Positions 1 to 58,463 of a stretch of 64,000 nt of DNA are shown in pieces. Below the pieces are notes generated by a model. That model did not search any database. It saw nothing but the letters and a program-made list of their open reading frames with translations, and was not told where the DNA came from. Position 1 is the stretch's first letter. Every line of letters begins with the position of its first letter. The position numbers and the translations under genes are program-made. Origin of the DNA: an uncultured virus (IMG/VR IMGVR_UViG_3300012147_001294) (lineage: Duplodnaviria; Heunggongvirae; Uroviricota; Caudoviricetes); the IMG/VR virus record IMGVR_UViG_3300012147_001294. One strand, given 5' to 3'.

Positions 1-41
1 AATTGCAGTTGGGCTTAATTCAATAATTTTATTGATATCCA

Positions 42-16335: not shown

Positions 16336-16342
16336 TTTTTTT

Positions 16343-17170
16343 TTACTTTTTAATTAATAGTTGTAAACTACTTGAGTTAAATCTTAATTTCCTAATCGCT
16401 TTTTCTTTTATTTGACGAATTCGTTCTTTAGTTAAATCGTATGTTTCACCTATTTTTTCTAATGTCATTTCTTCTTCATTTAAATTGATACCAAAATAAG
16501 ATTGAATTATAATTCTTTCTCTTTCATCTAAGATAAGCAACGTTTTTTTTAATTCGTTTCTTACATCATCTTTAATTTCTAAATCATCTTCTTCGTCTTC
16601 TATTTGAATAAGTTCAATTAACTCATCACCATCTTCGTTTATTACTTGGTTTAGAGAACTTGCTTTTGGGAAGAACACCATTTTATCCATTAGGGTCCCA
16701 TCACTCAGCATTTCTTGGTAAATTGGTTCTCTCTCGTTCGTATTCTCAAATTTAGATATTTCTTTATTTAATTTGTTTATTTTATTTATAACATTTGTTG
16801 GTAATCTAACAACTCTAGCATTGTCGTTTAAACTTTTAATTATTGATTGTTTAACCCACCAAACAGCATACGAAATAAATCTAAAACCCTTATCGTGGTC
16901 AAATCTATGTGCTGCTTTTATTAAACCATAATTTCCCTCGTTGATTAAATCTTGTAGGTCCAAACCTTGATTTTGATAGTCTTTTGCGACAGATATAACA
17001 AATTTCAAATTAGAACTAACTAATTCATCTACTGCTTTATTATCACCATTTCTAATTCTAATAGCCAACTCAATTTCTTTTTCTTGTGTTAAAATATTTG
17101 TTTTTTTAACTTCTTTAAAATATTTTGATATACTGTCCTCAATATCAAAATTCAAAAATCTCTTATTCAT
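16343..17170 (-). CDS. RpoD/SigA-family sigma factor lacking region 1.1 (Bacteroidota-like)
   Basis: NLKFVISVAK, DLINEGNYGLIKAA, FISYAVWW, VRLP, TLEKIG...TKERIRQI. Confidence 0.92.
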   Translation of the reverse strand: MNKRFLNFDIEDSISKYFKEVKKTNILTQEKEIELAIRIRNGDNKAVDELVSSNLKFVISVAKDYQNQGLDLQDLINEGNYGLIKAAHRFDHDKGFRFISYAVWWVKQSIIKSLNDNARVVRLPTNVINKINKLNKEISKFENTNEREPIYQEMLSDGTLMDKMVFFPKASSLNQVINEDGDELIELIQIEDEEDDLEIKDDVRNELKKTLLILDERERIIIQSYFGINLNEEEMTLEKIGETYDLTKERIRQIKEKAIRKLRFNSSSLQLLIKK

Positions 17171-17209
17171 TAATAATTATTTGTTAATTTTTTTTTATTA
17201 TATTTTACA

Positions 17210-17229
17210 TATAAATATAACTATAAATA
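17210..17229 (-). promoter_or_regulatory. two TATTTATA motifs upstream of the sigma gene
   Basis: TATAAATA on + strand at 17210-17217 and 17222-17229. Confidence 0.55.
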
Positions 17230-17252
17230 CTTTAAAGTAAATGGGTTATATA

Positions 17253-17741
17253 TTATTTACTTAAATACATCATTATTTTTTTATCATAATCTGTCATGTT
17301 TACTACTCCTTTATCCATGATTTCATTTAACATATTTTCTTTTTCTTTTTCTGACATTACACTAATATCACCCTCTATGTCTTGTATTTCTATTATTTTA
17401 TTGTTTTTATCATTTATTTCACTTAGTAAATCATTTGTTTTGTTAATTAAGTCATTATTGTTGGTTTGTTTACTAATAAAACCAAATAACCCATCATAGA
17501 CTTTTTTATTAGTGATAAAAACACCAGAATTTTCTGGGTTTAAATCAAAGACTAAAAAACTTCTATTGTTTAATGTAAACCAAGCCGTTAATTCTTTCAC
17601 ATCAACAAAAGTTGTTATTGTGGCTATAATTATTCCTTTTGCGTTTAATATGTTTGGTTTTGTTTCGCTTACTTTTTCTATTTCACTAACAGCATTTTCT
17701 GTTTCACCCATTATTACAATACAATAATTTTTAAAGTTCAT
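17253..17741 (-). CDS. hypothetical protein
   Basis: 162-aa ORF. Confidence 0.65.
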   Translation of the reverse strand: MNFKNYCIVIMGETENAVSEIEKVSETKPNILNAKGIIIATITTFVDVKELTAWFTLNNRSFLVFDLNPENSGVFITNKKVYDGLFGFISKQTNNNDLINKTNDLLSEINDKNNKIIEIQDIEGDISVMSEKEKENMLNEIMDKGVVNMTDYDKKIMMYLSK

Positions 17742-17748
17742 TTTTTTT

Positions 17749-20550
17749 TTATTTTATATTAATACTAGAGATATTATCTTTTTTAATTACAGTGATAATG
17801 TTTTTTGTCCAATCTTTGACCAAGTCGTTGTGAGTAATAAAAAATACAATATCATACATGTCTTTAATTTTATCAAATAACAATCTTAACTTTTCTAAAT
17901 TTACTGGGGCTATTTTACCTAATACTTCATCAAAGGTAATAAAGTTTGGCATTGGAAGGGAAGAAATTTTACCCAAAACAGCTCTAAGTGCAAGACTAGC
18001 TATCGTTTTTTCTAAACCAGACCCAGATTTCAATAAATTAGATACCTCATCTTTTACTATTAGAAACTGAACATCGTTTTTATCATTAATGAAAATCTCG
18101 ACCTCAAAATCTACGATATCCTCTAATAATCTTTGAACTTCAGAGTTAATAATAGGTAAAACAGAACGTAAGACTAATTTGCTAATACCTTTTTTACCAA
18201 CTAGTTCAATGTAAAATTTAAATATTTTTTCTACTTCCTCTTCTTTCTTAATTACTTCAATCAAATCGGTTTTAATGATTATTGACTCAGCAGCTGATTT
18301 TGTATCAATGGATATTCTTTGAATACTATTCATTGTATCATCTTTTGAGCGTTCCAGAACGATTAATTCGGTCTTGATGTAACTTATCTCGATATCTAAT
18401 TTTTTGTTTAAACTGATAGCGTCTAAATTCATGTTATACTTCTTAAAGTCATTCATTTTAGACACAACATCATTACGCAATGCTCCCAAATCAACACTAT
18501 ATCTATCTATTGTTAATTCTAATTTATTTTTATCATCAACACTTTTTTTAATATCATTAAACGCCAATAAAGATAAATTTGTGTTATAAACTTCTTTTTC
18601 TATTTTAGATAGTTTAGATATTAACAGATTTAGTTCTATTTCATGTTTGTTGATGTGTGCTGTGTTGTCAATGTCATCTAATTTTCTCTCACAAGTTTGA
18701 CAGATACCACTACTAATTAAATTACTAACAACTTTTCGAATGCGTGTAATATCGGAAGTAGTAAGTACTTTTTGAGTTATTAATTCATTATATTTTTTGT
18801 TTACTTCAATATGTTCGTCTTCATCGTAAATAATAGTACCAACATTCGTTAAGTTTTCTTTTAAGTTAGAGATGGTAAAATTTAGAAGTTTTCCCTTTTC
18901 TGTAATTATTTTAATGTCGGCTTCCAAAGATTCTGGATTCATATTAGTTATCGTAACATCAATCTTTTCTTTATTATTAATGTGACTTTCAACTTTTTTC
19001 ACACTATTTTCTATATTTAACTTTGTGTCAGTTAGTTTATTTGACAACTCAACATTTAATTTCTCTAATTCTATTAACTTTAGATTAGTGTCTTCAATGT
19101 CCGTGGTTAAAGTAACAACGTCAAAATCATTAGACTTTTTTTTCTTAGAAAAAAGATTGTACATTTCTCTAACAACTTTTTCTTTATGTTCTAATACTTC
19201 TAAACCAATAAGTCTAGTTAACAATTTACCAGATTCAGTAGTTGTAAGTCCTATAAGGTCCTCTAAATTTTTTTCTGTAGCTAAAACTAACATTTCAAAG
19301 TCTTTTTCAGAACCAATAGATTCCCTTATCTTTTTATTTGTCTGAATAGCATTTTCTTCGTTTAATTCTTCTTCTTCACCATCTGGTAGTAATTTATAAT
19401 ATTTAACTTTGTTAGTTATTGTCCAACCACCACCTTTTTTAGCATTACGTTTTAGTTTTCTTTCAATAATTACTTCATCGCTATCTATTTCAACCATACC
19501 CCTAACAGTAAATTCATTTTTACCACTGAACGAATTAAATATTTGCTCATTAGTATCTGTTTTAGTTGTATTACCGTGTAATAAAAACTTTATTGCATCT
19601 ATTGTCAAAGTTGTGTTATGTGAAACAATACCATTACTATAATACTGATGTACCTCAGCTACTTGAATGTCATAAAGGGTATCTTTAAAATCCATTAATT
19701 CTATCGATTTAACTTTACTTAACCCATCAATAGTTTGTATCGGTGTTCCAATTTCTATTTCTTTTAAAACAACAAAATCCCCATCTTCTTTTTTTAACCT
19801 ATGGTAATCAGCACCCTCTACATACTTTCCATCCTCAAGTTCACATCTATATACATCAGCATTTTCTTCTGTTATACCACACCAAGTAATATCTTTAAAA
19901 CCATAAGGTGTATCTACCTTAAACCCTAAATCTCCATATTTTTCATAAATAGCGTTTAATTCACCTATCGTTATTTCTTCGTTTAATTCATCTGGTAAAA
20001 AACCTAATTTTTTTATTATTTCATCTTTATCATATCTTATCGTTATGTCAGTATTTTCTCGCAAACACTTACCACCTTGATTTTCTGGAATTGAATTTAC
20101 AATAGTTAAACCATTTAGTTTGCTGAATTGAATAAAATTTTCATCACCAAAAGATAAAAAGTTATCAATCATTAACCATTTAATAGACCAACTTTTTTGA
20201 CTTGTAGAATTTAAATCTAAATTTAATTCACCATTAACTTTATCATCTAATGCTAATATGCGTTTAAAATCAATAGTTTTACCATCTCTAGTTACCAATT
20301 CTAACATTAGTGACCTTTGATAGTTGATGTCCATGATATTGTCAATACCAGCACCAGTTATTTCAATAACTTCACCATTTTCATTTATCTTAATAGGTCG
20401 ATAAATGATAGTTATGTTGTTTTTATTAACACCATATTTATTCGCAATTGAATTTCTTATTTTTATCTTAGCTTCTTTACTGTAATTGTGTGGTTGGTCA
20501 TCCCAGTACACTTTAATTTTAGAAGAAGGAGAAATTAAATTATTCACCAT
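17749..20550 (-). CDS. sbcC: SbcC/Rad50/gp46-like SMC ATPase with intein and N-terminal extension
   Basis: IDNFLSF, Walker A NQGGK/TT split by an intein, coiled coils, CQTC zinc hook, FITFDE Walker B, ITH. Confidence 0.9.
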   Translation of the reverse strand: MVNNLISPSSKIKVYWDDQPHNYSKEAKIKIRNSIANKYGVNKNNITIIYRPIKINENGEVIEITGAGIDNIMDINYQRSLMLELVTRDGKTIDFKRILALDDKVNGELNLDLNSTSQKSWSIKWLMIDNFLSFGDENFIQFSKLNGLTIVNSIPENQGGKCLRENTDITIRYDKDEIIKKLGFLPDELNEEITIGELNAIYEKYGDLGFKVDTPYGFKDITWCGITEENADVYRCELEDGKYVEGADYHRLKKEDGDFVVLKEIEIGTPIQTIDGLSKVKSIELMDFKDTLYDIQVAEVHQYYSNGIVSHNTTLTIDAIKFLLHGNTTKTDTNEQIFNSFSGKNEFTVRGMVEIDSDEVIIERKLKRNAKKGGGWTITNKVKYYKLLPDGEEEELNEENAIQTNKKIRESIGSEKDFEMLVLATEKNLEDLIGLTTTESGKLLTRLIGLEVLEHKEKVVREMYNLFSKKKKSNDFDVVTLTTDIEDTNLKLIELEKLNVELSNKLTDTKLNIENSVKKVESHINNKEKIDVTITNMNPESLEADIKIITEKGKLLNFTISNLKENLTNVGTIIYDEDEHIEVNKKYNELITQKVLTTSDITRIRKVVSNLISSGICQTCERKLDDIDNTAHINKHEIELNLLISKLSKIEKEVYNTNLSLLAFNDIKKSVDDKNKLELTIDRYSVDLGALRNDVVSKMNDFKKYNMNLDAISLNKKLDIEISYIKTELIVLERSKDDTMNSIQRISIDTKSAAESIIIKTDLIEVIKKEEEVEKIFKFYIELVGKKGISKLVLRSVLPIINSEVQRLLEDIVDFEVEIFINDKNDVQFLIVKDEVSNLLKSGSGLEKTIASLALRAVLGKISSLPMPNFITFDEVLGKIAPVNLEKLRLLFDKIKDMYDIVFFITHNDLVKDWTKNIITVIKKDNISSINIK
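19615..20067 (-). mobile_element. contiguous mini-intein (151 aa) in SbcC Walker A
   Basis: CLRENT... to ...YDIQV...GIVSHN followed by Thr; no endonuclease domain. Confidence 0.9.
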
Positions 20551-49150: not shown

Positions 49151-49158
49151 TACATTTG
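49151..49158 (+). promoter_or_regulatory. Bacteroidota-type -7 element (TACATTTG) for the endonuclease gene
   Basis: TAnnTTTG on + strand upstream of the ATG at 49186. Confidence 0.65.
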
Positions 49159-49185
49159 CGTAGTTATAATAAAGAAACAATAAGT

Positions 49186-50868
49186 ATGAAAAAAAAGACA
49201 ATAGAAGATTTTATTTTAGAATCAAATAAAATACATAACAGTAAATATGATTATACTAATTCAGTTTATATAGATAATAACACTAAACTTAAGATAATAT
49301 GTAGTGAGCATGGTGAATTTGAACAGAAACCTAATAAACACATTTGTAATAAACAAGGTTGTCCAAAATGTGGTTCAAGTAAAACTAGTGATAAACAGAA
49401 GAACACAATCGAATTCTTTATTCAAAAGGCTAATGAGGTACATAGTGATAAATATGATTACTCAAAGGTTATATATAAGAACACTAAAACTAAGGTTATA
49501 ATAATTTGTCCTATCCATGGTGAATTCGAACAAACGCCAGATAATCATTTATCTGGTAGAGGATGTATGTACTGTGGTGGTACAATTAAAATGGATGGAA
49601 AGTTATTTATATCTAAAGCTCAAAAAATACATAACAATAAATACGATTATTCAAAAGTTGTTTATACTAATTCTAGAACTAAAGTCACTATAATTTGTGC
49701 TATTCATGGTGAATTCGAACAAACACCAAATAACCATCTATCCAAAGAGCAAGGTTGTTTTGAATGTTTAGGTAAAATATACAATACCGACACTTTTAAA
49801 ACTATATGTAGTATAGTTCATAATAATAAATATGATTACTCAAAAGTAATCTACAATAACTCTCAGGGTGAAGTCGAAATAATTTGTCCTATTCATGGTG
49901 AATTTAATCAAAGGGTTGATTCACATAGACAAGGAAATGGTTGTATTAAATGTTCAAATAATGGTACATCGTCTCATGAAATTGAAATAAAGACTTTTAT
50001 AAAATCACTTGACGTTAAAATTATAGAGAATACTAGAAAAATAATAAAATCATTTGAATTAGATATTTATTTACCAGACCATAAAATAGCTATTGAATAT
50101 AATGGGTTATATTGGCATTCCGAAATATATAAAGATAAAAATTACCACCTCAATAAAACACAATTATGTTCAGAACAAGATATTCAATTAATACACATAT
50201 TTGAGGATGAATGGTTAAATAAACAAGATATTGTTAAATCTAGACTTAAAAATATTCTTGGTTTAACACAAAAAAGAGTTTATGGTAGAAAATGTGAAAT
50301 AAAAGAGGTATCAACAAAACAAGTCAGAGAATTTTTAATTAATAATCATTTACAAGGATATAGTAATTCAAGTATTAGGTTAGGGTTATATTATGAAAAC
50401 AAGTTAGTTTCTTTAATGACTTTTGGTAATTTAAGAAAGATTTTAGGTCAAAATAAAAAAGAAAACTCATATGAATTACTTAGATTTGTCAATGAGTTAG
50501 ATACGAGTGTAATTGGTGGGGCCGATAAATTATTTAAATATTTTATAAAAAATTATAACCCAAAAGAAGTTATTAGTTATGCCGATAAACGATGGAGTGT
50601 TGGTAATTTATATGAAAAATTAGGTTTTGAATTTATTCATGACTCGAAACCTAGCTATTTTTATATTATAAATAAAGAAAGGAAATATAGGTTTAATTAC
50701 CGAAAAGATTTGTTAGTTAAAGATGGTTATGATAAAACCAAGTCAGAACATGACATAATGTTAGAAAGAGGTATTTATCGAATTTATGACTCTGGTAATA
50801 AAAAATATATTTTAAAATTTTTTACTATTTTGTTTATATGTTTACAACAATCATATCTGATGTTGTAA
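49186..50868 (+). CDS. free-standing homing endonuclease-like protein (DUF723-like zinc repeats + PD-(D/E)XK/Hef-like domain)
   Basis: Four H..KYDYSKV.Y....KV.IIC..HGEF.Q....H....GC..C repeats; ELDIYLPDHKIAIEYNGLYWH; RIYDSG; antisense insertion in the baseplate operon. Confidence 0.8.
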   Translation: MKKKTIEDFILESNKIHNSKYDYTNSVYIDNNTKLKIICSEHGEFEQKPNKHICNKQGCPKCGSSKTSDKQKNTIEFFIQKANEVHSDKYDYSKVIYKNTKTKVIIICPIHGEFEQTPDNHLSGRGCMYCGGTIKMDGKLFISKAQKIHNNKYDYSKVVYTNSRTKVTIICAIHGEFEQTPNNHLSKEQGCFECLGKIYNTDTFKTICSIVHNNKYDYSKVIYNNSQGEVEIICPIHGEFNQRVDSHRQGNGCIKCSNNGTSSHEIEIKTFIKSLDVKIIENTRKIIKSFELDIYLPDHKIAIEYNGLYWHSEIYKDKNYHLNKTQLCSEQDIQLIHIFEDEWLNKQDIVKSRLKNILGLTQKRVYGRKCEIKEVSTKQVREFLINNHLQGYSNSSIRLGLYYENKLVSLMTFGNLRKILGQNKKENSYELLRFVNELDTSVIGGADKLFKYFIKNYNPKEVISYADKRWSVGNLYEKLGFEFIHDSKPSYFYIINKERKYRFNYRKDLLVKDGYDKTKSEHDIMLERGIYRIYDSGNKKYILKFFTILFICLQQSYLML

Positions 50869-51275: not shown

Positions 51276-51301
51276 AAAAGGGAGCCAATTGGTTCCCTTT
51301 T
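51276..51301 (-). terminator. intrinsic terminator after the nrdA cluster
   Basis: aaaagggagcc-aatt-ggttccctttt. Confidence 0.8.
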
Positions 51302-51316
51302 ACTTTTTGTTTTATT

Positions 51317-51934
51317 TTACGTAGAACAACCTTCACACTCAAATTGACTTTCTGTCGGTTTTTCTGGTTGTTTTACTTTACTCATGTCAATAGCTAAGTG
51401 TTTAGCTTTCATTTCAACTGGTTGACTTCTTAAATAGTATTGTCCAGTTTTTAACCCTAATCTCCAAGCTAGAAAATGTGCTGTTGTTAATTTACCTACC
51501 GTTGGAGTAGCGAAGAATAAATTTAAACTCTGTGATTGGTCAATAAATGGACCTCTTTCAGCTGACATTTCTATTAAAGATTTTTGTGACAACTCCCAAA
51601 CTGTTTTGTAAATGTCTTTTAAATCTTGACTAATTGCTGAAATATTTTGAACACTTCCTTCACTTTTAATTAATTCTTGTAAAATATCTCTATTCCATAA
51701 TCCTTCAGCTTCTAAGTCCCTTACTAGATGTTTATTTACCATCGCAAATTCACCACCAGTTACTTTTCTAACATAAAGATTTGACGTAAATGGTTCAAAT
51801 GCTTCGTTTGCCCCAATTACTCTAGCTGAGTTATGACTAACACAACCGTTTTCCATTATATAATGATTTACATTAGGTACTTCAATATCCCATGTTGGTT
51901 TTACTTCTCCTTTAGATATTTTTTTTATTTTCAT
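51317..51934 (-). CDS. nrdA: ribonucleotide reductase alpha, fragment 3 (IntC2 + C-terminal extein)
   Basis: Intein C-part ...VSHN then SARVIGANEAFEP, IDQSQSLN, GLKTGQYYLRS, terminal CEGCST. Confidence 0.92.
   Translation of the reverse strand: MKIKKISKGEVKPTWDIEVPNVNHYIMENGCVSHNSARVIGANEAFEPFTSNLYVRKVTGGEFAMVNKHLVRDLEAEGLWNRDILQELIKSEGSVQNISAISQDLKDIYKTVWELSQKSLIEMSAERGPFIDQSQSLNLFFATPTVGKLTTAHFLAWRLGLKTGQYYLRSQPVEMKAKHLAIDMSKVKQPEKPTESQFECEGCST
51830..51934 (-). mobile_element. split intein 2, C-part (35 aa)
   Basis: MKIKKISK...WDIEV...GCVSHN, +1 Ser. Confidence 0.92.
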
Positions 51935-51987
51935 TTTTTTTTTCTTAATTTATTAATATTTTTTATTTGATAACAAAACATCGAGGG

Positions 51988-52971
51988 TTATTCGAAAATA
52001 TTTAAAATATCGTCATCTAATAAGAGGTCTTTAACTTCAACCCAAGTTTCTTGACCATCTCTATTTACCTTAAACTTATGGTTTGGTGTTGCCTCAAAAA
52101 TAGAACCATCTTCCATTTCTATTTTGTACACTTCTGAATACGCATTGTATTTAATTTTATCAACTTCTTCGTAACCATTAGTGGTTTTTACATTAAAAGG
52201 TTTTAATGGTAACCATTGTTGTAAATTGTTGTCCTCTAAAGCTGACCAATCGATATTATTTTCTTCCAATATATCTTTAAAGGATTTAACACCGTTTTCG
52301 GTTTGTATTCTAGTTCCAATAACTTGACAACTAGCAGTTGGTGGTGCTGTTGTTACTAAAGAATTTCTAACACCATATTTAATTATGTCTTCTCTTAATT
52401 GTTTCCAATCATGAAGACCAGATAAATCTTCTTCATTTATTCCCCACATTTCCCATTGGAAAACACCCTCAGAAATAGGTGAACCTTCATACCCATGATA
52501 TTTTAAACCACTTGATTTAGCTAAATTACAAGATTCCTTAAGTGCATTATAATAAATGGTTTCAAAAATGTTTTTATTTAATTTCCTTGCACTTTCTGAA
52601 GTAAAAGGAAGTTTTAATATCGCATATGTGTCGGCTAATCCTTGAATACCAATTCCTAATGCTCTTTGCTCTAAACCACCTTTTCTACCTTCTTTTGTAG
52701 AATATTCATTGACCTCAATTGCGATATTAAGTGATTTAGTTATTGAACGAGCAACCCTTCCTAACTCAATAAAGTCATATTTACCATCTTTAATAAATTT
52801 ATGTACTGGGATACTTGTAAGCGTACAAATCGCAGTTGTCTGATAATCAGTCGATTCCATAATTTCTGCACAATTATGTACTAAGATACCGTTCCCAAAG
52901 AAATTACTATTACCTTCAACTGTAATGTCATACACCTTTTTATTTTCTTTTAATTTTTCTATTTTTATCAT
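51988..52971 (-). CDS. nrdA: ribonucleotide reductase alpha, fragment 2 (IntC1 + extein + IntN2)
   Basis: HN/CAEI, TAICTLTS, RALGIGIQGLAD, GVRNS..APPTAS/C. Confidence 0.92.
   Translation of the reverse strand: MIKIEKLKENKKVYDITVEGNSNFFGNGILVHNCAEIMESTDYQTTAICTLTSIPVHKFIKDGKYDFIELGRVARSITKSLNIAIEVNEYSTKEGRKGGLEQRALGIGIQGLADTYAILKLPFTSESARKLNKNIFETIYYNALKESCNLAKSSGLKYHGYEGSPISEGVFQWEMWGINEEDLSGLHDWKQLREDIIKYGVRNSLVTTAPPTASCQVIGTRIQTENGVKSFKDILEENNIDWSALEDNNLQQWLPLKPFNVKTTNGYEEVDKIKYNAYSEVYKIEMEDGSIFEATPNHKFKVNRDGQETWVEVKDLLLDDDILNIFE
51991..52329 (-). mobile_element. split intein 2, N-part (113 aa)
   Basis: CQVIGTRIQT...EATPNHKF (block B)...DLLLDDDI then stop. Confidence 0.9.
52873..52971 (-). 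mobile_element. split intein 1, C-part (33 aa)
   Basis: MIKIEK...VYDITVEGNSNFFGNGILVHN, +1 Cys. Confidence 0.93.
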
Positions 52972-52972
52972 T

Positions 52973-54559
52973 TTACGTTTTTGTATTTAATATTTCTAAT
53001 ACATCAGTCTCAACTAAATCTTTAGCTAACACATATCCTCTATTTTTTGTGAATATTTGGTGTTCTGGTGTGCAAATAATATGTTTACCAGTTTCCTCAT
53101 CAGTTATCTTTAAAACATCAGCTGACTCATTCATTAAGGCAGCATTTGTTATCTTTTTATATTCTGGTTTATTTGTTTCAATATTATAACTTAATACTTC
53201 TATACCGTGTTCTACATTAAAATCGTTAACAACATCGGAAATATTAAAATCAACTTCCTTACCATGATATTTTGTTTTAATAATTGTTTCACCATCAACA
53301 CACAAATTACTTGAATGAATCATACCAACGTTTTTTTGGTTCGATTTTTTATTAGCATGGTCTTTGTGACACATGTAAGGCATACCAGTCTCAATTTGGG
53401 CTTCTAATATTTTTAACCATAAATCATAAGCTTTTATCTTGGTTCCAATACCTAAAGCCACAGCTTTGTCGTATTCTTCTTCAAATTCAACACCATATAT
53501 TTCATAAAATGGTTTTAGACCAGCTTCTTTTATGTCATCTGGGCAAAATAGATACCAATCTCCTCCAGATTCAACTGCTCTCATGAAATTATCTGTATTC
53601 CATAAGGCCGAAAATAAATCTCTGGCCCTCATTGTTTCATCACCTGTTTTTTTTCTAATATCTAAAACATCAAATACATCTTTATGCCATGGTTCGATGT
53701 AGATTGCACAGGAACCTGGTCGTTTACCACGTTGATTCCAAAACCTAAGTGTTTCATTAACAATTTTTAAATATTTCAAAATACCACCAGCTTTTCCGTT
53801 AGATTTACCAACGTTACTTTCTTTAGAACGCATGTTAGAAACAGCTAATCCGATACCCTCTGCCTTTGACGATGAAATTGCAATTCTAGATAAAATATTT
53901 AATAAACCATCAGTTGAATCCTCTGGAATTATTGATAAGTTACATGATGCAATTTGTCCAATTGTGGTACCAATGTTAATTTTTAAAGGTGTTGCTGGAC
54001 TTTCTTTTTGAAAGCTTAAATCATCATACTTCTCTAAAAAGTCTTCTGGTGTTCCCGTTATCATTAAAGCAACCCTAACATATAAGTGTTGTGGTCGTTC
54101 AACGATTGAACCGTTTTTCAATTTTAGAAGATAAATATCTTTTAAAGAACACCACCCAAAATAATCAAAATGAAAATCTCTTTTATAATCAATTGCTGAC
54201 TCAATTAATTCGATATTATCTTTTACTTTATTGAAGTAAACCTCACTTAATAGACCAGCGTTATACATCTTTTTAGTCGCTTTCATAAACGATTCCTCAG
54301 TTTCCTTATGAAGTTTAGTTATTGAAATATTAGCGGCTAATATTGAGTAATCTGGATGATTCATTGCTAAAGATTCGGCCACAACAGAAATTAAGTCATC
54401 TAATTGATTAGTTGTCATTAAATCCGCAATACCTTGTGTTACTTTAATAAATACATCATCCGCATTTACTTTTAATCCTTCTGATTGTTTTTTAATTCTT
54501 GTTAGAATTTTATTCGGGTTAAAATCAATCTTATTCCCGTTTCTTTTAATTACTTGCAT
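52973..54559 (-). CDS. nrdA: ribonucleotide reductase alpha, fragment 1 (ATP cone + extein + IntN1)
   Basis: VIKRNG ATP cone, ERPQHLY, QIASC, NQRGKRPGS, ETGMPY, SSNL/C. Confidence 0.93.
   Translation of the reverse strand: MQVIKRNGNKIDFNPNKILTRIKKQSEGLKVNADDVFIKVTQGIADLMTTNQLDDLISVVAESLAMNHPDYSILAANISITKLHKETEESFMKATKKMYNAGLLSEVYFNKVKDNIELIESAIDYKRDFHFDYFGWCSLKDIYLLKLKNGSIVERPQHLYVRVALMITGTPEDFLEKYDDLSFQKESPATPLKINIGTTIGQIASCNLSIIPEDSTDGLLNILSRIAISSSKAEGIGLAVSNMRSKESNVGKSNGKAGGILKYLKIVNETLRFWNQRGKRPGSCAIYIEPWHKDVFDVLDIRKKTGDETMRARDLFSALWNTDNFMRAVESGGDWYLFCPDDIKEAGLKPFYEIYGVEFEEEYDKAVALGIGTKIKAYDLWLKILEAQIETGMPYMCHKDHANKKSNQKNVGMIHSSNLCVDGETIIKTKYHGKEVDFNISDVVNDFNVEHGIEVLSYNIETNKPEYKKITNAALMNESADVLKITDEETGKHIICTPEHQIFTKNRGYVLAKDLVETDVLEILNTKT
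52976..53302 (-). mobile_element. split intein 1, N-part (109 aa)
   Basis: CVDGET...ICTPEHQIFTKNRGYVLAKDL then stop. Confidence 0.93.
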
Positions 54560-54570
54560 ATTTTTTTTTA

Positions 54571-55548
54571 TTAAATTTCTTCATCAAATGAAATAGGTCC
54601 ACTTAAATCAGCTGATTTGTACTCTGTTGAACGACCTTCAAAAAAGTTTTGTTTTGTTTTTAAAGCAATTTGGTTCATAAATTCAAATGGGTTTTTAGTG
54701 TTAAAAACTTTGTCGCATTCAAGTTGAACCAATAAACCATCAACAACAAATTCTAAATATCTTTTCATTAATTCAGAATTCATACCAATAAGAGAAACTG
54801 GTAAAGATTCGGTAATAAACTCTTTTTCAATTTCTAATGCTGACAAGAAAATTTCTTTAATTCTTTCGTTAGATGGTTTGTTTACGATGTGATTATTCAA
54901 TAAGTGAATAGCAAAATCACAATGTAGTGCTTCATCTCTTGAAATGAATGCGTTGCTATCACATAATCCAGGCATCAAACCTCTTGATTTCAAATAAAAT
55001 ATACTACAAAAAGAACCACTGAAAAATATTCCTTCAACAGCAGCAAAAGCCACCAATCTTTCAGCAAATGATTCGGATTCAATCCATTTTAAAGCCCAAT
55101 CAGCCTTCTTCTTGACTGGTTCCATATATTCTATCGCCTTAAAGCATTCATTTCGCTCTTTGGTGTCTTTGATGTACGTATCAATCAATAGTGAATACAT
55201 ATTACTGTGTATATTTTCCATCATAATTTGAAAACCATAAAAGAATGATGCTTCAGTATACTGAACTTCTTTTAAAAAATTTTCTGCCAAGTTTTCATTT
55301 ACGATACCATCTGAGGCAGCAAAAAAAGCTAATACGTTTTTAATGAAAAACCTTTCATTTTCAGTTAATTTATTATTCCAATCGTCAATATCTTTAGATA
55401 AATCAACTTCTTTTACCGTCCACATTGATTCTAAAGATATTTCATAATATTTCCAAATATCTTCATGTTCAATTGGGAAAATAACAAAACGGTCCGAATT
55501 TTTAACTAAGATTGGTTCTATTTCTTCTACTCCACTAATATTACTCAT
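54571..55548 (-). CDS. nrdB: ribonucleotide reductase class Ia beta subunit
   Basis: [38 protein letters not shown]. Confidence 0.95.
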
Positions 55549-55577: not shown

Positions 55578-56078
55578 TTATACTGGGACTATTAACCCCT
55601 CCATTACTTCGGTCTTTGTTTTTTGTGCCTTAGCCGCTGCAAATAATGTATTAACTCTTAATTGCTGTTTTACACTTTTATCTTCAGTATGCTCTTTTTT
55701 TGTCCTAGCACCTTTACTTTCACCCATATCGATTTGAATCCTTGAATTATCAAATTTAATATCCTGAAATATAACACCATCTTTACCAAAACGAGATTTA
55801 AGTATTGCCATAGTTGCTGTACCATCATCTTTTTGGTCTAAAGTTTTAGCGATTGACACGATAAAGTGACCAATCTGACCTTTTTTAATAGAACCACCCA
55901 TTTGGTTTGCTTCCACCACTTCTGCTGAAAGAGAACTATTGTGTGTATAGATATCATTAGCGTAAAACATATGTGTTTCCTCTACTGTTATATCAATGGT
56001 GTCCTCTTCTCCGATTAATTCTATTGATTCAATTTCATCTAACTCAAAATCGTCTAAGTTTAAATTGTGTTCTATCAT
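55578..56078 (-). CDS. dnaB: replicative helicase, C-terminal fragment (IntC + extein)
   Basis: ...YANDIYTHN/SSLSAEVV, MGGSIKKGQIGHFI, ILKSRFG. Confidence 0.9.
   Translation of the reverse strand: MIEHNLNLDDFELDEIESIELIGEEDTIDITVEETHMFYANDIYTHNSSLSAEVVEANQMGGSIKKGQIGHFIVSIAKTLDQKDDGTATMAILKSRFGKDGVIFQDIKFDNSRIQIDMGESKGARTKKEHTEDKSVKQQLRVNTLFAAAKAQKTKTEVMEGLIVPV
55938..56078 (-). mobile_element. split intein 3, C-part (47 aa, acidic)
   Basis: DEIESIE..GEEDTIDITV...FYANDIYTHN, +1 Ser. Confidence 0.92.
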
Positions 56079-56141
56079 TTATTTTTTTTTAACTCCATAA
56101 TCCTTACTAATTAAATAGTAACAGAAATAGAAATATTTACA

Positions 56142-58463
56142 CTATTTTTTAGTTAATAATTTATCACCAACACTTAACCCAGTAGATATTGACCTTAATT
56201 TACCACATTTAACTGGGAATTCATGTTTACTAGAAACAAATATTTCCTTACCAGACTTTAATTTAATTTTATAAACTGGTTGTTTTTCTATTGGAAAAAC
56301 AGTAGTAATTTTTTTATACCCATCATTTGTTAATATTTCATCACCCTCAATAACATTCTTTATTTCTGTTTTACCCAACCTAATTATTTGAACCTCAGTA
56401 TCTATTCGCACGCAACGATTTCCTTGAACCGCTGTCCAACCAGCCATATCTAGTTCAGATAACAACGTCTCAAATTGTCTCATTACACTTCCTTCACCAG
56501 CGTTTATATCATCAAATTTTCTTGATGGTTCAACGCAATCTATGTAGTCTAATAAGATTAAGTCTGGTCTAAACCCTTGTGCGATTAATTTTCGGATATA
56601 TTGTCTAATCATAGGTATTGTTGTCCCATCGCTTGAAAATTTTACTAATCTTAAATCACCTAGCTTTTGTTTTTCAGCGACAATCGTCATAACTTCATCA
56701 TGATGTGACGACAAATCATTTAGAGGGATGCCTGTCCAACAAGATAAGTGTTTTCTTTGAATAACTTTTGGGTTATCTTCGAAAAATATTTGTAAAACAT
56801 TATAACCATCATTAGCTCCAGTATTCGCTATTTTTGTCATCATTGTTGTATTATGTGTGACGATAAAATCGTCTGTAACATATAAATGCTCTGGGTCATC
56901 AACCATAATACATTTAGCTTCTTCATCATGTGAATATTCAATACTTTCTATGAACTTATTGTCAGAGTGGTTATCGTTATTAACCACTCTGACTAACTTA
57001 CTGTTTAATTTAAATGGAACTACACCATTTTCTTTAGGAAATGAAATAACTAATCTATAAGTTAATTCCCCTACTTTATTAGAAACTAAACAAGAACCAC
57101 CCAAAGATAGAACTAATTCTTTAACGTCATCACATAGCTGTTTAGAAACGGTATTATATCCAACACTACCATCTTTTCCAACACTACCATCGTTATCTAA
57201 TAACCCTTGTAGAATCTCTTGTCTATTGTTAATTGAGTTATATAGATATTCTTTAGGTATAAATTTATTATTAGATGACGAATCAAATAACCCAAGTTTT
57301 TTTATTACATCGGTGATTTGATTTATGGTTACGATAACATCATCTTTATACATTTCAACACCGTATGTTGAATCACCACTCATACTTTGTTTAATGTATT
57401 CTATCAGTTCAAAATCTTTAGTTACTATTATAGAAGACTTGAAGTATTCATCACCTATTAATAACCCCAAAAGGTATGGGTTTAACGGTAATTCTTTTTC
57501 GTCAAAAATAACTGGTTTAACTGTTGGAATCTTATAGTTAAACTCACCTTTAGGGTCAGAATTTAACTTTTCAATAATATCACTGGTTTTCATAACAGTA
57601 AAATCATCGTTTGGGTCCAATTTAGTTTGTTGATTAACTGACCATAAGTGTTCTTTATCACACATTGTTGATGTTCCATCATTAAACTTTACTTGGTAAA
57701 TTGGTCTGATACCTTGTGGGTAAACCCCAGTAACATTTGTTTGTCTACCTAACCTATTAATTACCCTATCACCAACTTTAATATCACCCATTAAACAATA
57801 ACCACTTGGAGTATAAATTTTACTCGAAACACCTTGTGCTTTACCAACACCAAATGGTGCTAATATAACACCTAATTCACCTTTGGATAGACCACCATCC
57901 ATTATTTCGTCTAACCCAGAAATACCAGTTGGTATTGGTTTCCTAAAATCAACATCTAAAACACTACTTATGTTGTCATAGACACTCATTCCTTGGTCTT
58001 TGTTATCACCAACTTCGAGTGATTTTCTTAACATAGCTTCGATTTGGTCGAAATTATCCAATCCACCACTTTTATTTAGTTTTTCAACATTCACTAAAGT
58101 CTTCAACATGTCTTGCTGTTTACAAAACCTCATAGCCATGTCTTGGACTTTTAATGTATCATTTAAATCGGCTTCTTGTATTTTTCTAAGTTGTGCAATG
58201 ACGTATTTTTGTTGTATATCGTCTTTAACTTCTTCTAATAATCTAAATTGTAGACTACCAATATCTGGTACTATGTTATCAATTCTATGTGCATCTTTAA
58301 TTGTAGCAACAATTATTTTCAAATACGAGTCAGCAAAATAATTTGGGTCAACGATATCTAAAATAGATTCACTAAATTTTCTATCCGTTATAAATTGTGC
58401 AATTAGTCTAATTTGATAATCGTAACCTAAATAACCAAAACTATCTCTATCTAACACCGCCAT
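56142..58463 (-). CDS. dnaB: replicative DnaB/gp41-like helicase, N-terminal fragment with two inteins
   Basis: IPTGISGLD, LAPFGVGK/TT, FFED, LDYID, WTAVQGNR/C. Confidence 0.92.
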   Translation of the reverse strand: MAVLDRDSFGYLGYDYQIRLIAQFITDRKFSESILDIVDPNYFADSYLKIIVATIKDAHRIDNIVPDIGSLQFRLLEEVKDDIQQKYVIAQLRKIQEADLNDTLKVQDMAMRFCKQQDMLKTLVNVEKLNKSGGLDNFDQIEAMLRKSLEVGDNKDQGMSVYDNISSVLDVDFRKPIPTGISGLDEIMDGGLSKGELGVILAPFGVGKAQGVSSKIYTPSGYCLMGDIKVGDRVINRLGRQTNVTGVYPQGIRPIYQVKFNDGTSTMCDKEHLWSVNQQTKLDPNDDFTVMKTSDIIEKLNSDPKGEFNYKIPTVKPVIFDEKELPLNPYLLGLLIGDEYFKSSIIVTKDFELIEYIKQSMSGDSTYGVEMYKDDVIVTINQITDVIKKLGLFDSSSNNKFIPKEYLYNSINNRQEILQGLLDNDGSVGKDGSVGYNTVSKQLCDDVKELVLSLGGSCLVSNKVGELTYRLVISFPKENGVVPFKLNSKLVRVVNNDNHSDNKFIESIEYSHDEEAKCIMVDDPEHLYVTDDFIVTHNTTMMTKIANTGANDGYNVLQIFFEDNPKVIQRKHLSCWTGIPLNDLSSHHDEVMTIVAEKQKLGDLRLVKFSSDGTTIPMIRQYIRKLIAQGFRPDLILLDYIDCVEPSRKFDDINAGEGSVMRQFETLLSELDMAGWTAVQGNRCVRIDTEVQIIRLGKTEIKNVIEGDEILTNDGYKKITTVFPIEKQPVYKIKLKSGKEIFVSSKHEFPVKCGKLRSISTGLSVGDKLLTKK
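56145..56414 (-). mobile_element. split intein 3, N-part (90 aa, basic)
   Basis: CVRIDT...VSSKHEFP...GLSVGDKL then stop. Confidence 0.92.
56850..57839 (-). mobile_element. contiguous class 3 intein (330 aa) with LAGLIDADG domain in DnaB Walker A
   Basis: Starts with Ala; EHLW, AKCIMV, VTHN/T; LLGLLIGDE and LQGLLDNDG motifs. Confidence 0.9.

What the first reader, a model, noticed from the sequence alone, without database searches (positions are those of the whole stretch)
51317..54559. Ribonucleotide reductase alpha built from three genes by two split inteins
Seen: ORF1 ends SSNL followed by a 109-aa intein N-part. ORF2 starts with a 33-aa intein C-part (HN/CAEI) and ends APPTAS followed by a 113-aa N-part. 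ORF3 starts with a 35-aa C-part (HN/SARVIG). Removing the intein parts gives 419+181+170 = 770 aa with continuous NrdA motifs (SNLCAEI, APPTASSAR..N..FEP, terminal CxxC). Established: the +1 Cys of junction 1 is the thiyl-radical cysteine of the NLCxE motif, and single split NrdA/NrdJ inteins are known from phage metagenomes. From memory, pair 1 resembles the NrdA-2 type. Inference: the enzyme needs two ordered trans-splicing reactions. The middle piece carries both an IntC and an IntN, so the pairs must be orthogonal, or it would circularise or be skipped. A natural three-piece trans-spliced protein is rare.
Basis: partly seen in the sequence, partly recalled or inferred. Interest (0 to 1): 0.88.

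Follow-up and report, generated by a model that had tools for sequence, protein, structure and literature searches.

The report
Three-gene phage RNR, two split inteins
An uncultured large phage encodes the big subunit of its DNA-precursor enzyme (ribonucleotide reductase) as three adjacent genes whose ends carry matching halves of two unrelated split inteins, so the enzyme is very probably stitched from three proteins, a layout common in phage metagenomes that I found in print only for engineered proteins.

Summary
Three minus-strand ORFs, in three different frames, give exteins of 419+181+170 = 770 aa and intein parts of 109/33 and 113/35 aa. Intein-less relatives about 80% identical are contiguous exactly across both junctions.

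All canonical splicing residues are present. They are conserved in 56 middle-piece protein clusters.

Pair 1 belongs to the published NrdA-1..7/NrdJ-1 split-intein family and sits before the thiyl-radical Cys. Pair 2 sits in the PTAS|S phosphate loop. I found no named or solved sequence relative of it.

Relatives show every state:
- no intein
- site 1 only
- site 2 only
- both sites
- a homing endonuclease gene, or a remnant of one, in either gap

A 98%-identical strain differs by a clean 1195-nt GIY-YIG endonuclease insertion at junction 1. The window is the endonuclease-free form at both sites.

"Ordered" splicing has no support. "Rare" is wrong for metagenomes. Six literature searches found no paper on a natural two-split-intein protein.

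This scan noted the same layout before on other genomes. I class it as a new variant of a known kind.

The parts
54571..55548 (-). nrdB, the RNR small subunit. It is the partner gene, directly upstream in the same orientation.
   Evidence: Pfam Ribonuc_red_sm, E 1e-104.
53303..54559 (-). Extein 1 of NrdA (ORF1 aa 1-419): ATP-cone, all-alpha domain and the first part of the barrel. It ends in SSNL.
   Evidence: Pfam ATP-cone, Ribonuc_red_lgN and Ribonuc_red_lgC positions 1-213. It aligns with yeast Rnr1 residues 1-430. The boundary was computed and confirmed against intein-less relatives.
52973..53302 (-). IntN1: the 109-aa N half of split intein 1 plus its stop codon (ORF1 aa 420-528). It has Cys1 and a TPEH block B.
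   Evidence: Pfam Intein_splicing. Residues 423-523 match the solved NrdJ-1 intein 8ubs at E 1.4e-11. By eye it is similar to the NrdA-1/-2/-4 N-inteins in supplementary Figure S1 of PMC2677866.
52873..52971 (-). IntC1: the 33-aa C half of split intein 1 (ORF2 aa 1-33), ending in HN. The next residue is the thiyl-radical Cys.
   Evidence: Pfam Intein_splicing positions 124-155. D15, H32 and N33 are each present in 56 of 56 middle-piece clusters.
52330..52872 (-). Extein 2 (ORF2 aa 34-214), from CAEI to APPTAS.
   Evidence: Pfam barrel positions 212-462. Aligns with human RRM1. dN/dS is 0.11-0.17 against four relatives.
51988..52329 (-). IntN2: the 113-aa N half of split intein 2 plus its stop codon (ORF2 aa 215-327). 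It has Cys1 and a TPNH block B.
   Evidence: Cys1 is present in 56 of 56 clusters and the block B His in 54 of 56. No BLASTP similarity to IntN1. No significant solved relative by sequence. The complex model with IntC2 scores 0.81, best control 0.01.
51935..51987 (-). A 53-nt A-rich spacer between ORF2 and ORF3. Relatives carry a 353-359-aa endonuclease gene, or a 90-aa remnant of it, at this place.
51830..51934 (-). IntC2: the 35-aa C half of split intein 2 (ORF3 aa 1-35), ending in HN. The +1 residue is Ser.
   Evidence: Residues 12-22 and 25-35 are invariant in 5 lineages. dN/dS is 0.04-0.24.
51317..51829 (-). Extein 3 plus its stop codon (ORF3 aa 36-205), from SARVIG through the YY dyad to the C-terminal CxxC.
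   Evidence: Pfam barrel positions 393-523. Aligns with human RRM1 605-769. Y166, Y167, C200 and C203 are invariant in 5 lineages.
51276..51301 (.). A terminator-like palindromic hairpin just after ORF3. It is the only such site between 50800 and 56200.

Best explanation
The phage's class Ia ribonucleotide reductase alpha subunit is made as three separate polypeptides from one nrdB-nrdA operon.

ORF1 carries extein 1 fused to IntN1. ORF2 carries IntC1, extein 2 and IntN2. ORF3 carries IntC2 and extein 3. IntN1 pairs with IntC1, and IntN2 pairs with IntC2. Each reconstituted HINT domain then carries out canonical class-1 protein trans-splicing: Cys1 acyl shift, transesterification to the +1 Cys (site 1) or +1 Ser (site 2), and cyclisation of the terminal Asn. 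The result is one 770-aa NrdA.

Both inteins sit in the active site. Site 1 is directly before the thiyl-radical Cys. Site 2 is in the PTAS|S(T) substrate-phosphate loop. No precursor should therefore be active.

The two inteins are unrelated in their N halves, so they should not cross-react. Cross-reaction would otherwise circularise or skip extein 2.

Each split intein is what remains of a 'fractured gene', meaning a free-standing homing endonuclease gene sitting between the intein halves. In this window both endonuclease genes are gone.

Shown here: the anatomy, the exact junctions, residue conservation, purifying selection, the series of states in relatives, and a predicted IntN2-IntC2 complex. 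Inferred: that splicing happens, that the pairs are orthogonal, and that the product is active.
For: 1. **Exact junctions.** Intein-less relatives about 80-85% identical (L013-L018) are contiguous precisely where the window's exteins end and begin.

2. **Canonical residues.**
 - Cys1 is present in both N parts, with block B TPEH and TPNH. Both C parts have the block F Asp and a terminal HN. The +1 residues are Cys and Ser.
 - In 56 middle-piece clusters (extein 2 identity 41-100%): D15 56/56, H32 56/56, N33 56/56, IntN2 Cys1 56/56, block B His 54/56.
 - The +1 Cys is present in 51/56. The 5 exceptions were not all inspected. One of them, P0005 (the L008 form), uses a site one residue downstream with Ser +1.

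3. **Purifying selection** between three-piece and other lineages: exteins dN/dS 0.05-0.17, IntC1 0.08-0.26, IntN2 0.09-0.25, IntC2 0.04-0.24.

4. **Every piece holds essential residues.** Extein 1 has the Cys aligned with yeast Rnr1 C218. Extein 2 has the Cys and Glu of NLCxE. Extein 3 has the YY dyad and the CxxC.

5. **Pair 1 belongs to a family shown to splice.** It has the same site as NrdA-1..7 and is similar to the Figure S1 sequences. NrdA-2 N2 x C2 gave 16,000-19,000 units in the reporter matrix of PMC7090010, against tens to hundreds for non-cognate pairs (supplementary dataset 1).

6. **Predicted IntN2-IntC2 complex.** ipSAE is 0.81 and the best of 3 controls is 0.01. That mark was reached by 116 of 157 solved complexes and 2 of 215 mismatched pairs. 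The runs agree in at least 95% of contacts and the partner's pLDDT is at least 80. My own alignments were used, and likeness to solved split inteins may drive the pass.

7. **Independent assemblies.**
 - Two IMG/VR contigs are 100% identical over 6.3 kb.
 - A 98% variant occurs in a third contig and in Logan contigs of an independent run, X4. Those contigs bridge the ORF2/ORF3 spacer and carry the 1195-nt insertion at junction 1.
 - Nine distinct contigs in three lineages carry both split inteins. Both junctions are visible in 7 of them; in 2, extein 1 runs off the contig end.

8. **One operon.** ORF1's stop and ORF2's ATG are 1 nt apart. The only terminator-like site follows ORF3.
Against: - No protein or RNA data exist. 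No RNA run holding the stretch was listed.
- Read laying returned only Logan contigs, not raw reads. X1, the run that may be the source of this DNA, laid only short pieces.
- Orthogonality rests on the lack of sequence similarity between the N parts. The two C parts share 13 of 35 residues. Both pairs have the same charge polarity: N parts -8 and -11, C parts +1 and +1. Electrostatics would therefore not keep them apart.
- dS values are mostly above 0.75 and partly saturated, so the dN/dS ratios are rough.
- The record is only about 30% complete. Another RNR elsewhere in the genome cannot be excluded: none was found in the 105.5 kb held.
Confidence: 0.85

Rival explanations
1. The three pieces assemble non-covalently into an active enzyme without protein splicing, as the two NrdA fragments of Aeromonas phage Aeh1 do. 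The intein halves would then serve only as docking domains.
For: A fragmented phage NrdA that works without splicing is documented. I saw this in the abstract of PMC3045599 and in passages of PMC2677866. Split-intein halves bind tightly, so docking alone is conceivable. The IntN2-IntC2 complex model shows docking, not chemistry.
Against: All nucleophiles and catalytic residues of both inteins are kept in 56 clusters spanning 41-100% extein identity. A mere docking role would not require that. An unspliced HINT domain would sit directly on the thiyl-radical Cys and inside the phosphate loop.
Confidence: 0.05
2. The stops and frame changes are sequencing or assembly errors, and the gene really carries two contiguous mini-inteins, or none.
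For: One related protein, P0064, has intein 2 as one continuous reading frame with a three-residue bridge before the Met of the C part. It is a single cluster with one member on one contig. No raw reads could be laid.
Against: Three different frames are involved, not just stops. Two other contigs are identical. A 98% variant has 1195 nt of endonuclease gene between the halves of intein 1, which cannot be read through. The same split points recur in lineages 74-80% identical. 56 middle-piece clusters come from several data sources.
Confidence: 0.02
3. The locus is a decaying nrdA that mobile elements have broken beyond use. The pieces are made, or not made, without giving an enzyme.
For: PMC3653736 suggests that nrdA of some Campylobacter phages is degenerating under intein load (passages). 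The record is incomplete, so a second RNR cannot be excluded.
Against: dN/dS is 0.05-0.17 for all three exteins and 0.26 or less for IntC1, IntN2 and IntC2. No catalytic residue is lost. An intact nrdB lies directly upstream.
Confidence: 0.03
4. Both inteins splice but are not fully orthogonal. A substantial share of ORF2 circularises (IntC1 with IntN2), or extein 1 is joined directly to extein 3 (IntN1 with IntC2), and the phage tolerates the loss.
For: The C parts share 13 of 35 residues. Both pairs have an acidic N part and a slightly basic C part.
Against: The N parts are not alignable (E 5.2). In the published matrix, NrdA-2 was orthogonal to the other split inteins tested (supplementary dataset 1 of PMC7090010). 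The same two intein families co-occur in 56 clusters with conserved exteins, which argues that the combination works.
Confidence: 0.1

Closest known systems
Fractured genes NrdA-1 to NrdA-7 of ocean metagenomes (Dassa, London, Stoddard, Schueler-Furman, Pietrokovski 2009, PMC2677866)
   Same: The host protein is the same. Site 1 is the same insertion point, directly N-terminal to the thiyl-radical Cys. The intein family is the same: IntC1 is identical to the NrdA-7 C part at about 22 of 33 positions, by eye from supplementary Figure S1, and IntN1 shares long motifs with NrdA-1/-2/-4. The charge polarity is also the same, with an acidic N part and a basic C part. A 98% identical strain (L001) has the defining GIY-YIG endonuclease gene, with an upstream hairpin, between the halves.
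   Different: Those loci have one split per gene, and the paper states one NrdA integration point. Here a second split intein, unrelated in its N half, sits about 180 residues downstream in the same protein. In the window neither gap holds an endonuclease gene.
NrdJ-1 split intein (solved structures 8ubs, 9omb)
   Same: It is the closest solved relative of IntN1 by sequence (E 1.4e-11). Its insertion point, one residue after the radical Cys with Ser +1, is the one used by the first intein of the related three-piece lineage L008.
   Different: The host is the class II enzyme NrdJ. The window's own intein 1 sits one residue upstream and uses Cys +1.
Engineered tandem trans-splicing with orthogonal split inteins (for example PMC7090010, PMC12707363)
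   Same: One chain is made from three pieces. The middle piece carries a C-intein at its N end and an N-intein of a second, orthogonal pair at its C end.
   Different: Those are designed constructs. This one is natural, under purifying selection and widespread. For PMC7090010 I saw passages and supplementary datasets. For PMC12707363 I saw only the search listing and the start of the abstract.
Aeromonas phage Aeh1 nrdA-a / mobE / nrdA-b 'gene in pieces' (PMC3045599; described in PMC2677866)
   Same: A phage class I NrdA is cut by a free-standing homing endonuclease gene inside one operon.
   Different: Aeh1 has no intein halves, and its fragments assemble non-covalently. Here complete split-intein halves with all catalytic residues flank each break.
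Trichodesmium erythraeum split dnaE with further contiguous inteins
   Same: One protein carries several inteins, one of them split. The window's own helicase gene shows this known pattern.
   Different: Only one of those inteins is split, so the protein is made from two pieces, not three.

Membership tests
Class Ia ribonucleotide reductase alpha subunit (NrdA / R1) | ATP-cone, all-alpha domain and ten-stranded barrel domain, in that order. | tested here: met
   Pfam finds PF03477, PF00317 and PF02867. The three exteins cover barrel profile positions 1-213, 212-462 and 393-523 of 523.
Class Ia ribonucleotide reductase alpha subunit (NrdA / R1) | Catalytic residues: the N-x-C-x-E finger loop, the redox Cys in the first half, the YY radical-transfer dyad and the C-terminal Cys pair. 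| tested here: met
   SSNL|CAEI aligns with SNLCTEI of human RRM1. ASCNL aligns with SSCFL of yeast Rnr1. GQYYLR aligns with GMYYLR. CEGC lies at the C end and is invariant in 5 lineages. The roles of these residues are established knowledge that I recalled.
Class Ia ribonucleotide reductase alpha subunit (NrdA / R1) | A partner small subunit NrdB. | tested here: met
   PF00268, E 1e-104, at 54571-55548, directly upstream.
Canonical (class 1) split intein | The N part starts with Cys or Ser and has a block B TxxH. The C part has the block F Asp, a terminal His-Asn and a Cys, Ser or Thr at +1. | tested here: met
   Both pairs have these residues. They are conserved in 54-56 of 56 clusters. The +1 Cys is present in 51 of 56 clusters. 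Of the other 5, the one inspected (P0005) has Ser +1 at a shifted site.
Canonical (class 1) split intein | The two halves lie on separate polypeptides, and removing them restores the uninterrupted host sequence. | tested here: met
   The ORFs are separate and in different frames. The exteins abut exactly in intein-less relatives.
Canonical (class 1) split intein | The halves associate into one HINT fold. | tested here: met
   Tested for pair 2 only: complex model 0.81, best control 0.01. The mark was reached by 116 of 157 solved complexes and 2 of 215 mismatches, the runs agree in at least 95% of contacts, and the partner's pLDDT is at least 80. This is a prediction and may reflect likeness to solved inteins. 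Pair 1 was not modelled.
Canonical (class 1) split intein | Trans-splicing activity. | not testable with these tools
   It needs expression and mass spectrometry. A family member of pair 1, NrdA-2, spliced in the assay of PMC7090010 (supplementary dataset 1).
NrdA-1..7 split-intein family (Dassa et al. 2009), for pair 1 | Insertion directly N-terminal to the thiyl-radical Cys of NrdA. | tested here: met
NrdA-1..7 split-intein family (Dassa et al. 2009), for pair 1 | Sequence similarity of both halves. | tested here: met
   I compared them by eye with supplementary Figure S1. This was not scored by a program, because paper sequences were not entered into tools. Independent support: IntN1 matches the solved NrdJ-1 intein at E 1.4e-11.
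'Fractured gene' arrangement (Dassa et al. 2009) | A free-standing homing endonuclease gene between the two split-intein halves. | tested here: not met
   The window's gaps are 1 nt and 53 nt. The feature is met in relatives. L001 has a 395-aa GIY-YIG/NUMOD ORF at site 1. L081 and L132 have 252-257-aa GIY-YIG ORFs. L004 and L012 have 353-359-aa ORFs at site 2. The L004 ORF matches PHROG 9084 'homing endonuclease' at E 5.6e-7; the L012 ORF does not match it. Both match PHROG 559 at E 1e-5. The paper itself lists one locus without the endonuclease, gp41-7.
NrdA-1..7 split-intein family, for pair 2 | The same insertion point and similar sequence. | tested here: not met
   Site 2 is 181 residues downstream. 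IntN2 shows no similarity to IntN1. It has no significant solved relative: DnaE inteins score only E 0.14-0.5. I saw nothing like it in Figure S1 (by eye).

The most novel reading that the evidence does not exclude
Natural tandem protein trans-splicing is an obligate and widespread way for phages to make an essential enzyme.

Two unrelated split inteins have been selected to work side by side on one middle fragment without circularising it. They would then be a ready-made, naturally tuned orthogonal pair.

Once the endonuclease genes are lost, as in this window, the split inteins are locked in. Each can be removed only by an exact deletion of both halves.

Because both sit in the active site and both start with Cys, splicing could also gate dNTP synthesis during infection, for example by redox state or by the relative supply of the three pieces.
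Probability: 0.45. Interest if true: 0.72.

Novelty: new variant of a known kind. Interest (0 to 1): 0.6.

Why it matters
Split inteins are the main tool for ligating proteins in cells. Joining three or more pieces needs pairs that do not cross-react, and such pairs are found today by screening.

This locus and its many relatives show that phages already run a three-piece ligation on an essential enzyme. Its middle fragment has exactly the design engineers use. It offers a second NrdA split-intein family, at site 2, with no published characterisation that I could find.

The relatives also give an unusually complete picture of the homing cycle at two sites of one gene. They include:
- empty sites
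- a split intein with an endonuclease gene
- a truncated endonuclease
- a remnant of an endonuclease
- the endonuclease-free split

A recently exchanged 405-nt module, made of the intein N half and the start of the endonuclease gene, adds to that picture.

Annotation pipelines call the pieces plain 'ribonucleotide reductase alpha subunit' or 'hypothetical protein'. The layout is therefore invisible in databases.

Tried and rejected
- **RNA evidence.** No RNA holder was listed for the stretch.
- **Read laying.** Only Logan contigs were available, not raw reads. X1 (a possible source of this DNA), X3 and X5 laid only short pieces. Only X4 gave bridging contigs. Per-read support for the stops could therefore not be obtained.
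- **AlphaFold2.** I folded the contiguous form of intein 2, a stretch of P0064, as a single sequence. Mean pLDDT was 39.1, so the model is unusable and no fold search was run.
- **Careful ML tree.** It did not finish within the time limit. Only the quick tree (SH-aLRT support) is reported.
- **Site-2 endonuclease.** Pfam gave no family for the gap ORFs of L004 and L012. PDB by sequence gave nothing. Only PHROGs matched. BLASTP of the L004 ORF against the window's own free-standing endonuclease (49156-50868) was not significant (E 0.21).
- **NrdA-2 sequence.** It was not in the supplements of PMC7090010 that I could search. I found it in the supplement of PMC2677866 and compared it by eye only.
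- **IntN1 of window against L008.** dN/dS was 0.70 at 38% identity. I rejected it as a measure, because these are different inteins at sites one residue apart.
- **Origin of the endonuclease-free junction 1.** I asked whether it arose by deletion. The window shares a 6-nt word with the 3' end of L001's endonuclease gene. That is too short, in AT-rich DNA, to decide.
- **Cross-pair complex prediction.** I did not run IntN2 with IntC1. The single job went to the cognate pair 2, and a negative result would not have counted as evidence.
- **Own assembly.** It is not held, so I used the virus record G001 instead.

Full report
**Observation**

Three ORFs lie head to tail on the minus strand directly downstream of nrdB (54571-55548).

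- ORF1, 52973-54559, 528 aa: extein 1 (419 aa, ending SSNL) plus IntN1 (109 aa).
- ORF2, 51988-52971, 327 aa: IntC1 (33 aa, ending HN), extein 2 (181 aa, CAEI...APPTAS) and IntN2 (113 aa).
- ORF3, 51317-51934, 205 aa: IntC2 (35 aa, ending HN) plus extein 3 (170 aa).

The three ORFs are in three different frames. ORF1's stop and ORF2's ATG are 1 nt apart, and ORF2 and ORF3 are 53 nt apart.

Pfam finds ATP-cone, the all-alpha domain and the barrel domain. The three exteins cover barrel profile positions 1-213, 212-462 and 393-523. Intein_splicing matches the tail of ORF1 and both ends of ORF2.

**Are the junctions right?**

A scan of IMG/VR with ORF2 returned 80 loci. tblastn with the seven parts showed that relatives L013-L018 have one uninterrupted nrdA. 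Their exteins are 75-88% identical to the window's, and the hits of extein 1, 2 and 3 abut without gap or overlap. That fixes both intein boundaries to the residue.

By alignment to solved structures:
- The +1 Cys of junction 1 is the Cys of SNLCTEI in human RRM1.
- Junction 2 lies between the Ser and Thr of PTAS|T, at 606|607 in 3hnc numbering.
- Extein 1 holds the Cys aligned with yeast C218.
- Extein 3 holds the YY dyad and the terminal CxxC.

Each piece therefore carries residues that the enzyme needs. The roles of these residues are established knowledge that I recalled.

**Is it an artefact?**

- Two other IMG/VR contigs are 100% identical over 6.3 kb.
- A third contig, L001, is 98% identical. 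It differs at junction 1 by a clean replacement of 12 nt (window 52977-52988) with 1195 nt.
- The same joint appears in a Logan contig of an independent run, X4. That contig also bridges the ORF2/ORF3 spacer.
- Only contigs, not raw reads, could be laid. The run that may be the source laid only short pieces.
- Three frames, an insertion that cannot be read through, and recurrence of the same split points in diverged lineages (below) make assembly error very unlikely.

**The two inteins**

Both N parts start with Cys and have a block B TxxH (TPEH, TPNH). Both C parts have the block F Asp and end in HN. The +1 residues are Cys and Ser.

Pair 1:
- IntN1 matches the solved NrdJ-1 intein at E 1.4e-11.
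- Passages of Dassa et al. 2009 (PMC2677866) say that all seven NrdA split inteins sit directly N-terminal to the thiyl-radical residue, which is site 1 here. They also say that NrdJ-1 sits one residue further on.
- Their supplementary Figure S1 prints the sequences. By eye, IntC1 is identical to the NrdA-7 C part at about 22 of 33 positions, and IntN1 shares long motifs with NrdA-1, -2 and -4.

Pair 2:
- IntN2 shows no BLASTP similarity to IntN1 (E 5.2).
- It has no significant solved relative by sequence.
- The two C parts share 13 of 35 residues.
- A complex model of IntN2 with IntC2 scored 0.81, against 0.01 for the best of 3 controls. That mark was reached by 116 of 157 solved complexes and 2 of 215 mismatched pairs. 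The runs agree in at least 95% of contacts, and the partner's pLDDT is at least 80.
- My own alignments were used, and the pass may reflect likeness to solved split inteins.

Both pairs have an acidic N part (-8, -11) and a slightly basic C part (+1, +1). Charge would therefore not keep them apart.

**How common is it?**

A search of 5.8 billion protein clusters with ORF2 gave 1941 hits at E <= 1e-10 among proteins of 179-573 aa. I classified the 120 listed by BLASTP with the window's parts:

| Clusters | Build |
|---|---|
| 56 | IntC1 + extein 2 + IntN2 (middle pieces) |
| 35 | IntC1 + extein 2 + extein 3 (site 1 only) |
| 17 | part of extein 1 + extein 2 + IntN2 |
| 4 | extein 2 + IntN2 |
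| 2 | extein 1 + extein 2 + extein 3 |
| 2 | extein 2 + extein 3 |
| 2 | a hit to extein 1 before IntC1 + extein 2 + IntN2 |
| 1 | IntC1 + extein 2 |
| 1 | P0064: site 1 split, intein 2 in one continuous frame |

In the 56 middle pieces (extein 2 identity 41-100%), conservation was as follows:
- block F Asp 56/56
- His-Asn 56/56
- IntN2 Cys1 56/56
- block B His 54/56
- +1 Cys 51/56

Some of these middle pieces sit on contigs of up to 565,891 bases. Where a source names them, they are called 'ribonucleotide reductase alpha subunit' or 'hypothetical protein'.

**Relatives show every state**

Two scans gave 154 loci, with duplicates between the scans. The classification was:

| Loci | State |
|---|---|
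| 114 | no intein at either site |
| 13 | both sites split |
| 8 | site 2 only |
| 1 | site 1 only (L081) |
| 3 | site 2 split, extein 1 off the contig end |
| 15 | one or both sites not scorable |

By contig name, the 13 loci with both splits are 7 distinct contigs. Two more contigs have extein 1 missing at the contig end. Together they fall into three lineages: the window's, L008's and L132's.

In the L008 lineage, the first intein sits one residue downstream (…SSNLC | intein | SEIME…), which is the NrdJ-1 point, with Ser +1. Three-piece genes are thus built with two different first inteins.

On a quick ML tree, the 'both' state needs at least 3 changes. The tree used 42 distinct concatenated exteins plus 3 outgroups, with SH-aLRT support only, because the careful search did not finish. 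On that tree, L081 (site 1 only) and L132 (both) have almost identical exteins. Their DNA is 97% identical up to the site.

**Endonuclease genes in the gaps**

Site 1:
- L001 has a 395-aa ORF with GIY-YIG and NUMOD domains. A 14-bp hairpin precedes it and covers a start codon.
- L081 and L132 have 252-257-aa versions.
- The window and L008 have none.

Site 2:
- L004 and L012 have 353-359-aa ORFs that overlap the start of the C part.
- Pfam finds no family for them.
- The L004 ORF matches PHROG 9084 'homing endonuclease' at E 5.6e-7. Both ORFs match PHROG 559 at E 1e-5.
- L132 keeps a 90-aa remnant made of that ORF's two ends.
- The window has 53 nt and L008 has 37 nt.

The window is therefore the endonuclease-free form at both sites.

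Between L001 and L132, a 405-nt tract has 3 mismatches, in a background of about 75-85% identity. The tract covers the last 9 nt of extein 1, all of IntN1, the hairpin and the start of the endonuclease gene. This indicates a recent exchange of that module.

**Selection**

Between the window's allele and four relatives, dN/dS was:
- exteins: 0.05-0.17
- IntC1: 0.08-0.26
- IntN2: 0.09-0.25
- IntC2: 0.04-0.24

dS is largely saturated, so the ratios are rough. They are still far from neutral.

**Expression signals**

The only terminator-like hairpin between 50800 and 56200 follows ORF3, at 51276-51301. The stop-N-ATG spacing at junction 1 fits translational coupling; that is my inference. No RNA data were available.

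**Mechanism**

The most likely course is as follows. Three polypeptides are made from one operon. Each intein half finds its partner. Two canonical trans-splicing reactions then give one 770-aa NrdA, which works with NrdB.

The anatomy, junctions, conservation and selection are shown here. Splicing itself, orthogonality and activity are inferred.

Nothing I saw speaks for a fixed order of the two reactions.

Orthogonality is expected for three reasons. The N halves are unrelated. The family of pair 1 was orthogonal to the other split inteins in the published matrix (supplementary dataset 1 of PMC7090010). The combination persists under selection in many lineages.

**Known or new?**

Single split NrdA and NrdJ inteins and the 'fractured gene' arrangement are published (PMC2677866). 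Three-piece ligation with orthogonal split inteins is published as engineering (PMC7090010, passages and supplements; PMC12707363, search listing only).

Six full-text searches found no description of a natural protein assembled by two split inteins. I also read passages of PMC2677866, PMC3653736, PMC7090010 and the preprint 10.1101/2025.01.02.630785 and found none there. The library lacks most subscription journals, so this does not prove absence.

Earlier agents of this scan reported the same layout on at least six other genomes, with the same reading. My own counts agree that it is common in metagenomes.

I rate it a new variant of a known kind. It is real, widespread and apparently undescribed. 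It is a combination of known parts, and it is no longer new to this scan.

Noticed in passing
window 55578-58463 (-): The DnaB/gp41-like helicase gene upstream of nrdB is also in pieces. ORF 56142-58463 (773 aa) holds a contiguous intein with a LAGLIDADG domain and ends in an N-intein half. ORF 55578-56078 (166 aa) starts with a C-intein half ending HN|S. By eye, the halves resemble the gp41-8 N-intein and the 'unknown host' C-intein in supplementary Figure S1 of PMC2677866.
   Followed up: partly
window 17749-20550 (-): A 933-aa SbcC-like protein (PHROG 77, E 8e-34) carries a weak Intein_splicing match at residues 196-312. This suggests a further, contiguous intein.
   Followed up: no
window 49156-50868 (+): A 570-aa free-standing homing endonuclease (PHROG 559, E 6e-144; PHROG 3339, E 8e-113) lies on the opposite strand between the gp25-like and the next baseplate wedge gene. 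In relative L132 those two genes are adjacent. L081 has a different 249-aa ORF at the same place, whose sequence looks GIY-YIG-like by eye; it was not scanned against any family library. The spot looks like a hot spot for endonuclease insertion.
   Followed up: partly
L001:2478-2882 against L132: A 405-nt tract (end of extein 1, IntN1, hairpin, start of the GIY-YIG gene) has 3 mismatches between two phage lineages whose flanks are about 75-85% identical. This looks like recent exchange of the module made of the intein N half and the endonuclease start. IntC1 is only 79% identical between the same two lineages.
   Followed up: yes
P0064 (567 aa, one Logan contig): Intein 2 is present as one continuous reading frame. 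The N part is joined to the Met of the C part by three residues, while site 1 of the same protein is split. It may be a re-fused or ancestral mini-intein, or an assembly error. It is a single member on a single contig.
   Followed up: partly
P0106 and P0112 (509 aa): These middle pieces start with a different C-intein-like segment ending HN. It is followed by GGGKRKG, further upstream in the barrel than site 1, so the +1 residue is Gly. They have no intein at site 1 and end in IntN2.
   Followed up: no
L008:2434-5636: This related three-piece nrdA has its first split intein one residue downstream of the window's site: after the radical Cys, with Ser +1, which is the NrdJ-1 point.
   Followed up: yes
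window 1-64000: The window is a T4-like replication and baseplate module of a low-GC (about 29%) phage. It encodes gp32, a RecA/UvsX-like protein, a 5'-3' exonuclease, primase, a Dda-like helicase, RNase HII, a sigma-70 factor and DnaJ. The record is 105.5 kb and is estimated to be about 30% complete. The nearest cultured-phage DNA matches are Tenacibaculum and Cellulophaga phages, at about 70-74% identity over short stretches.
   Followed up: no
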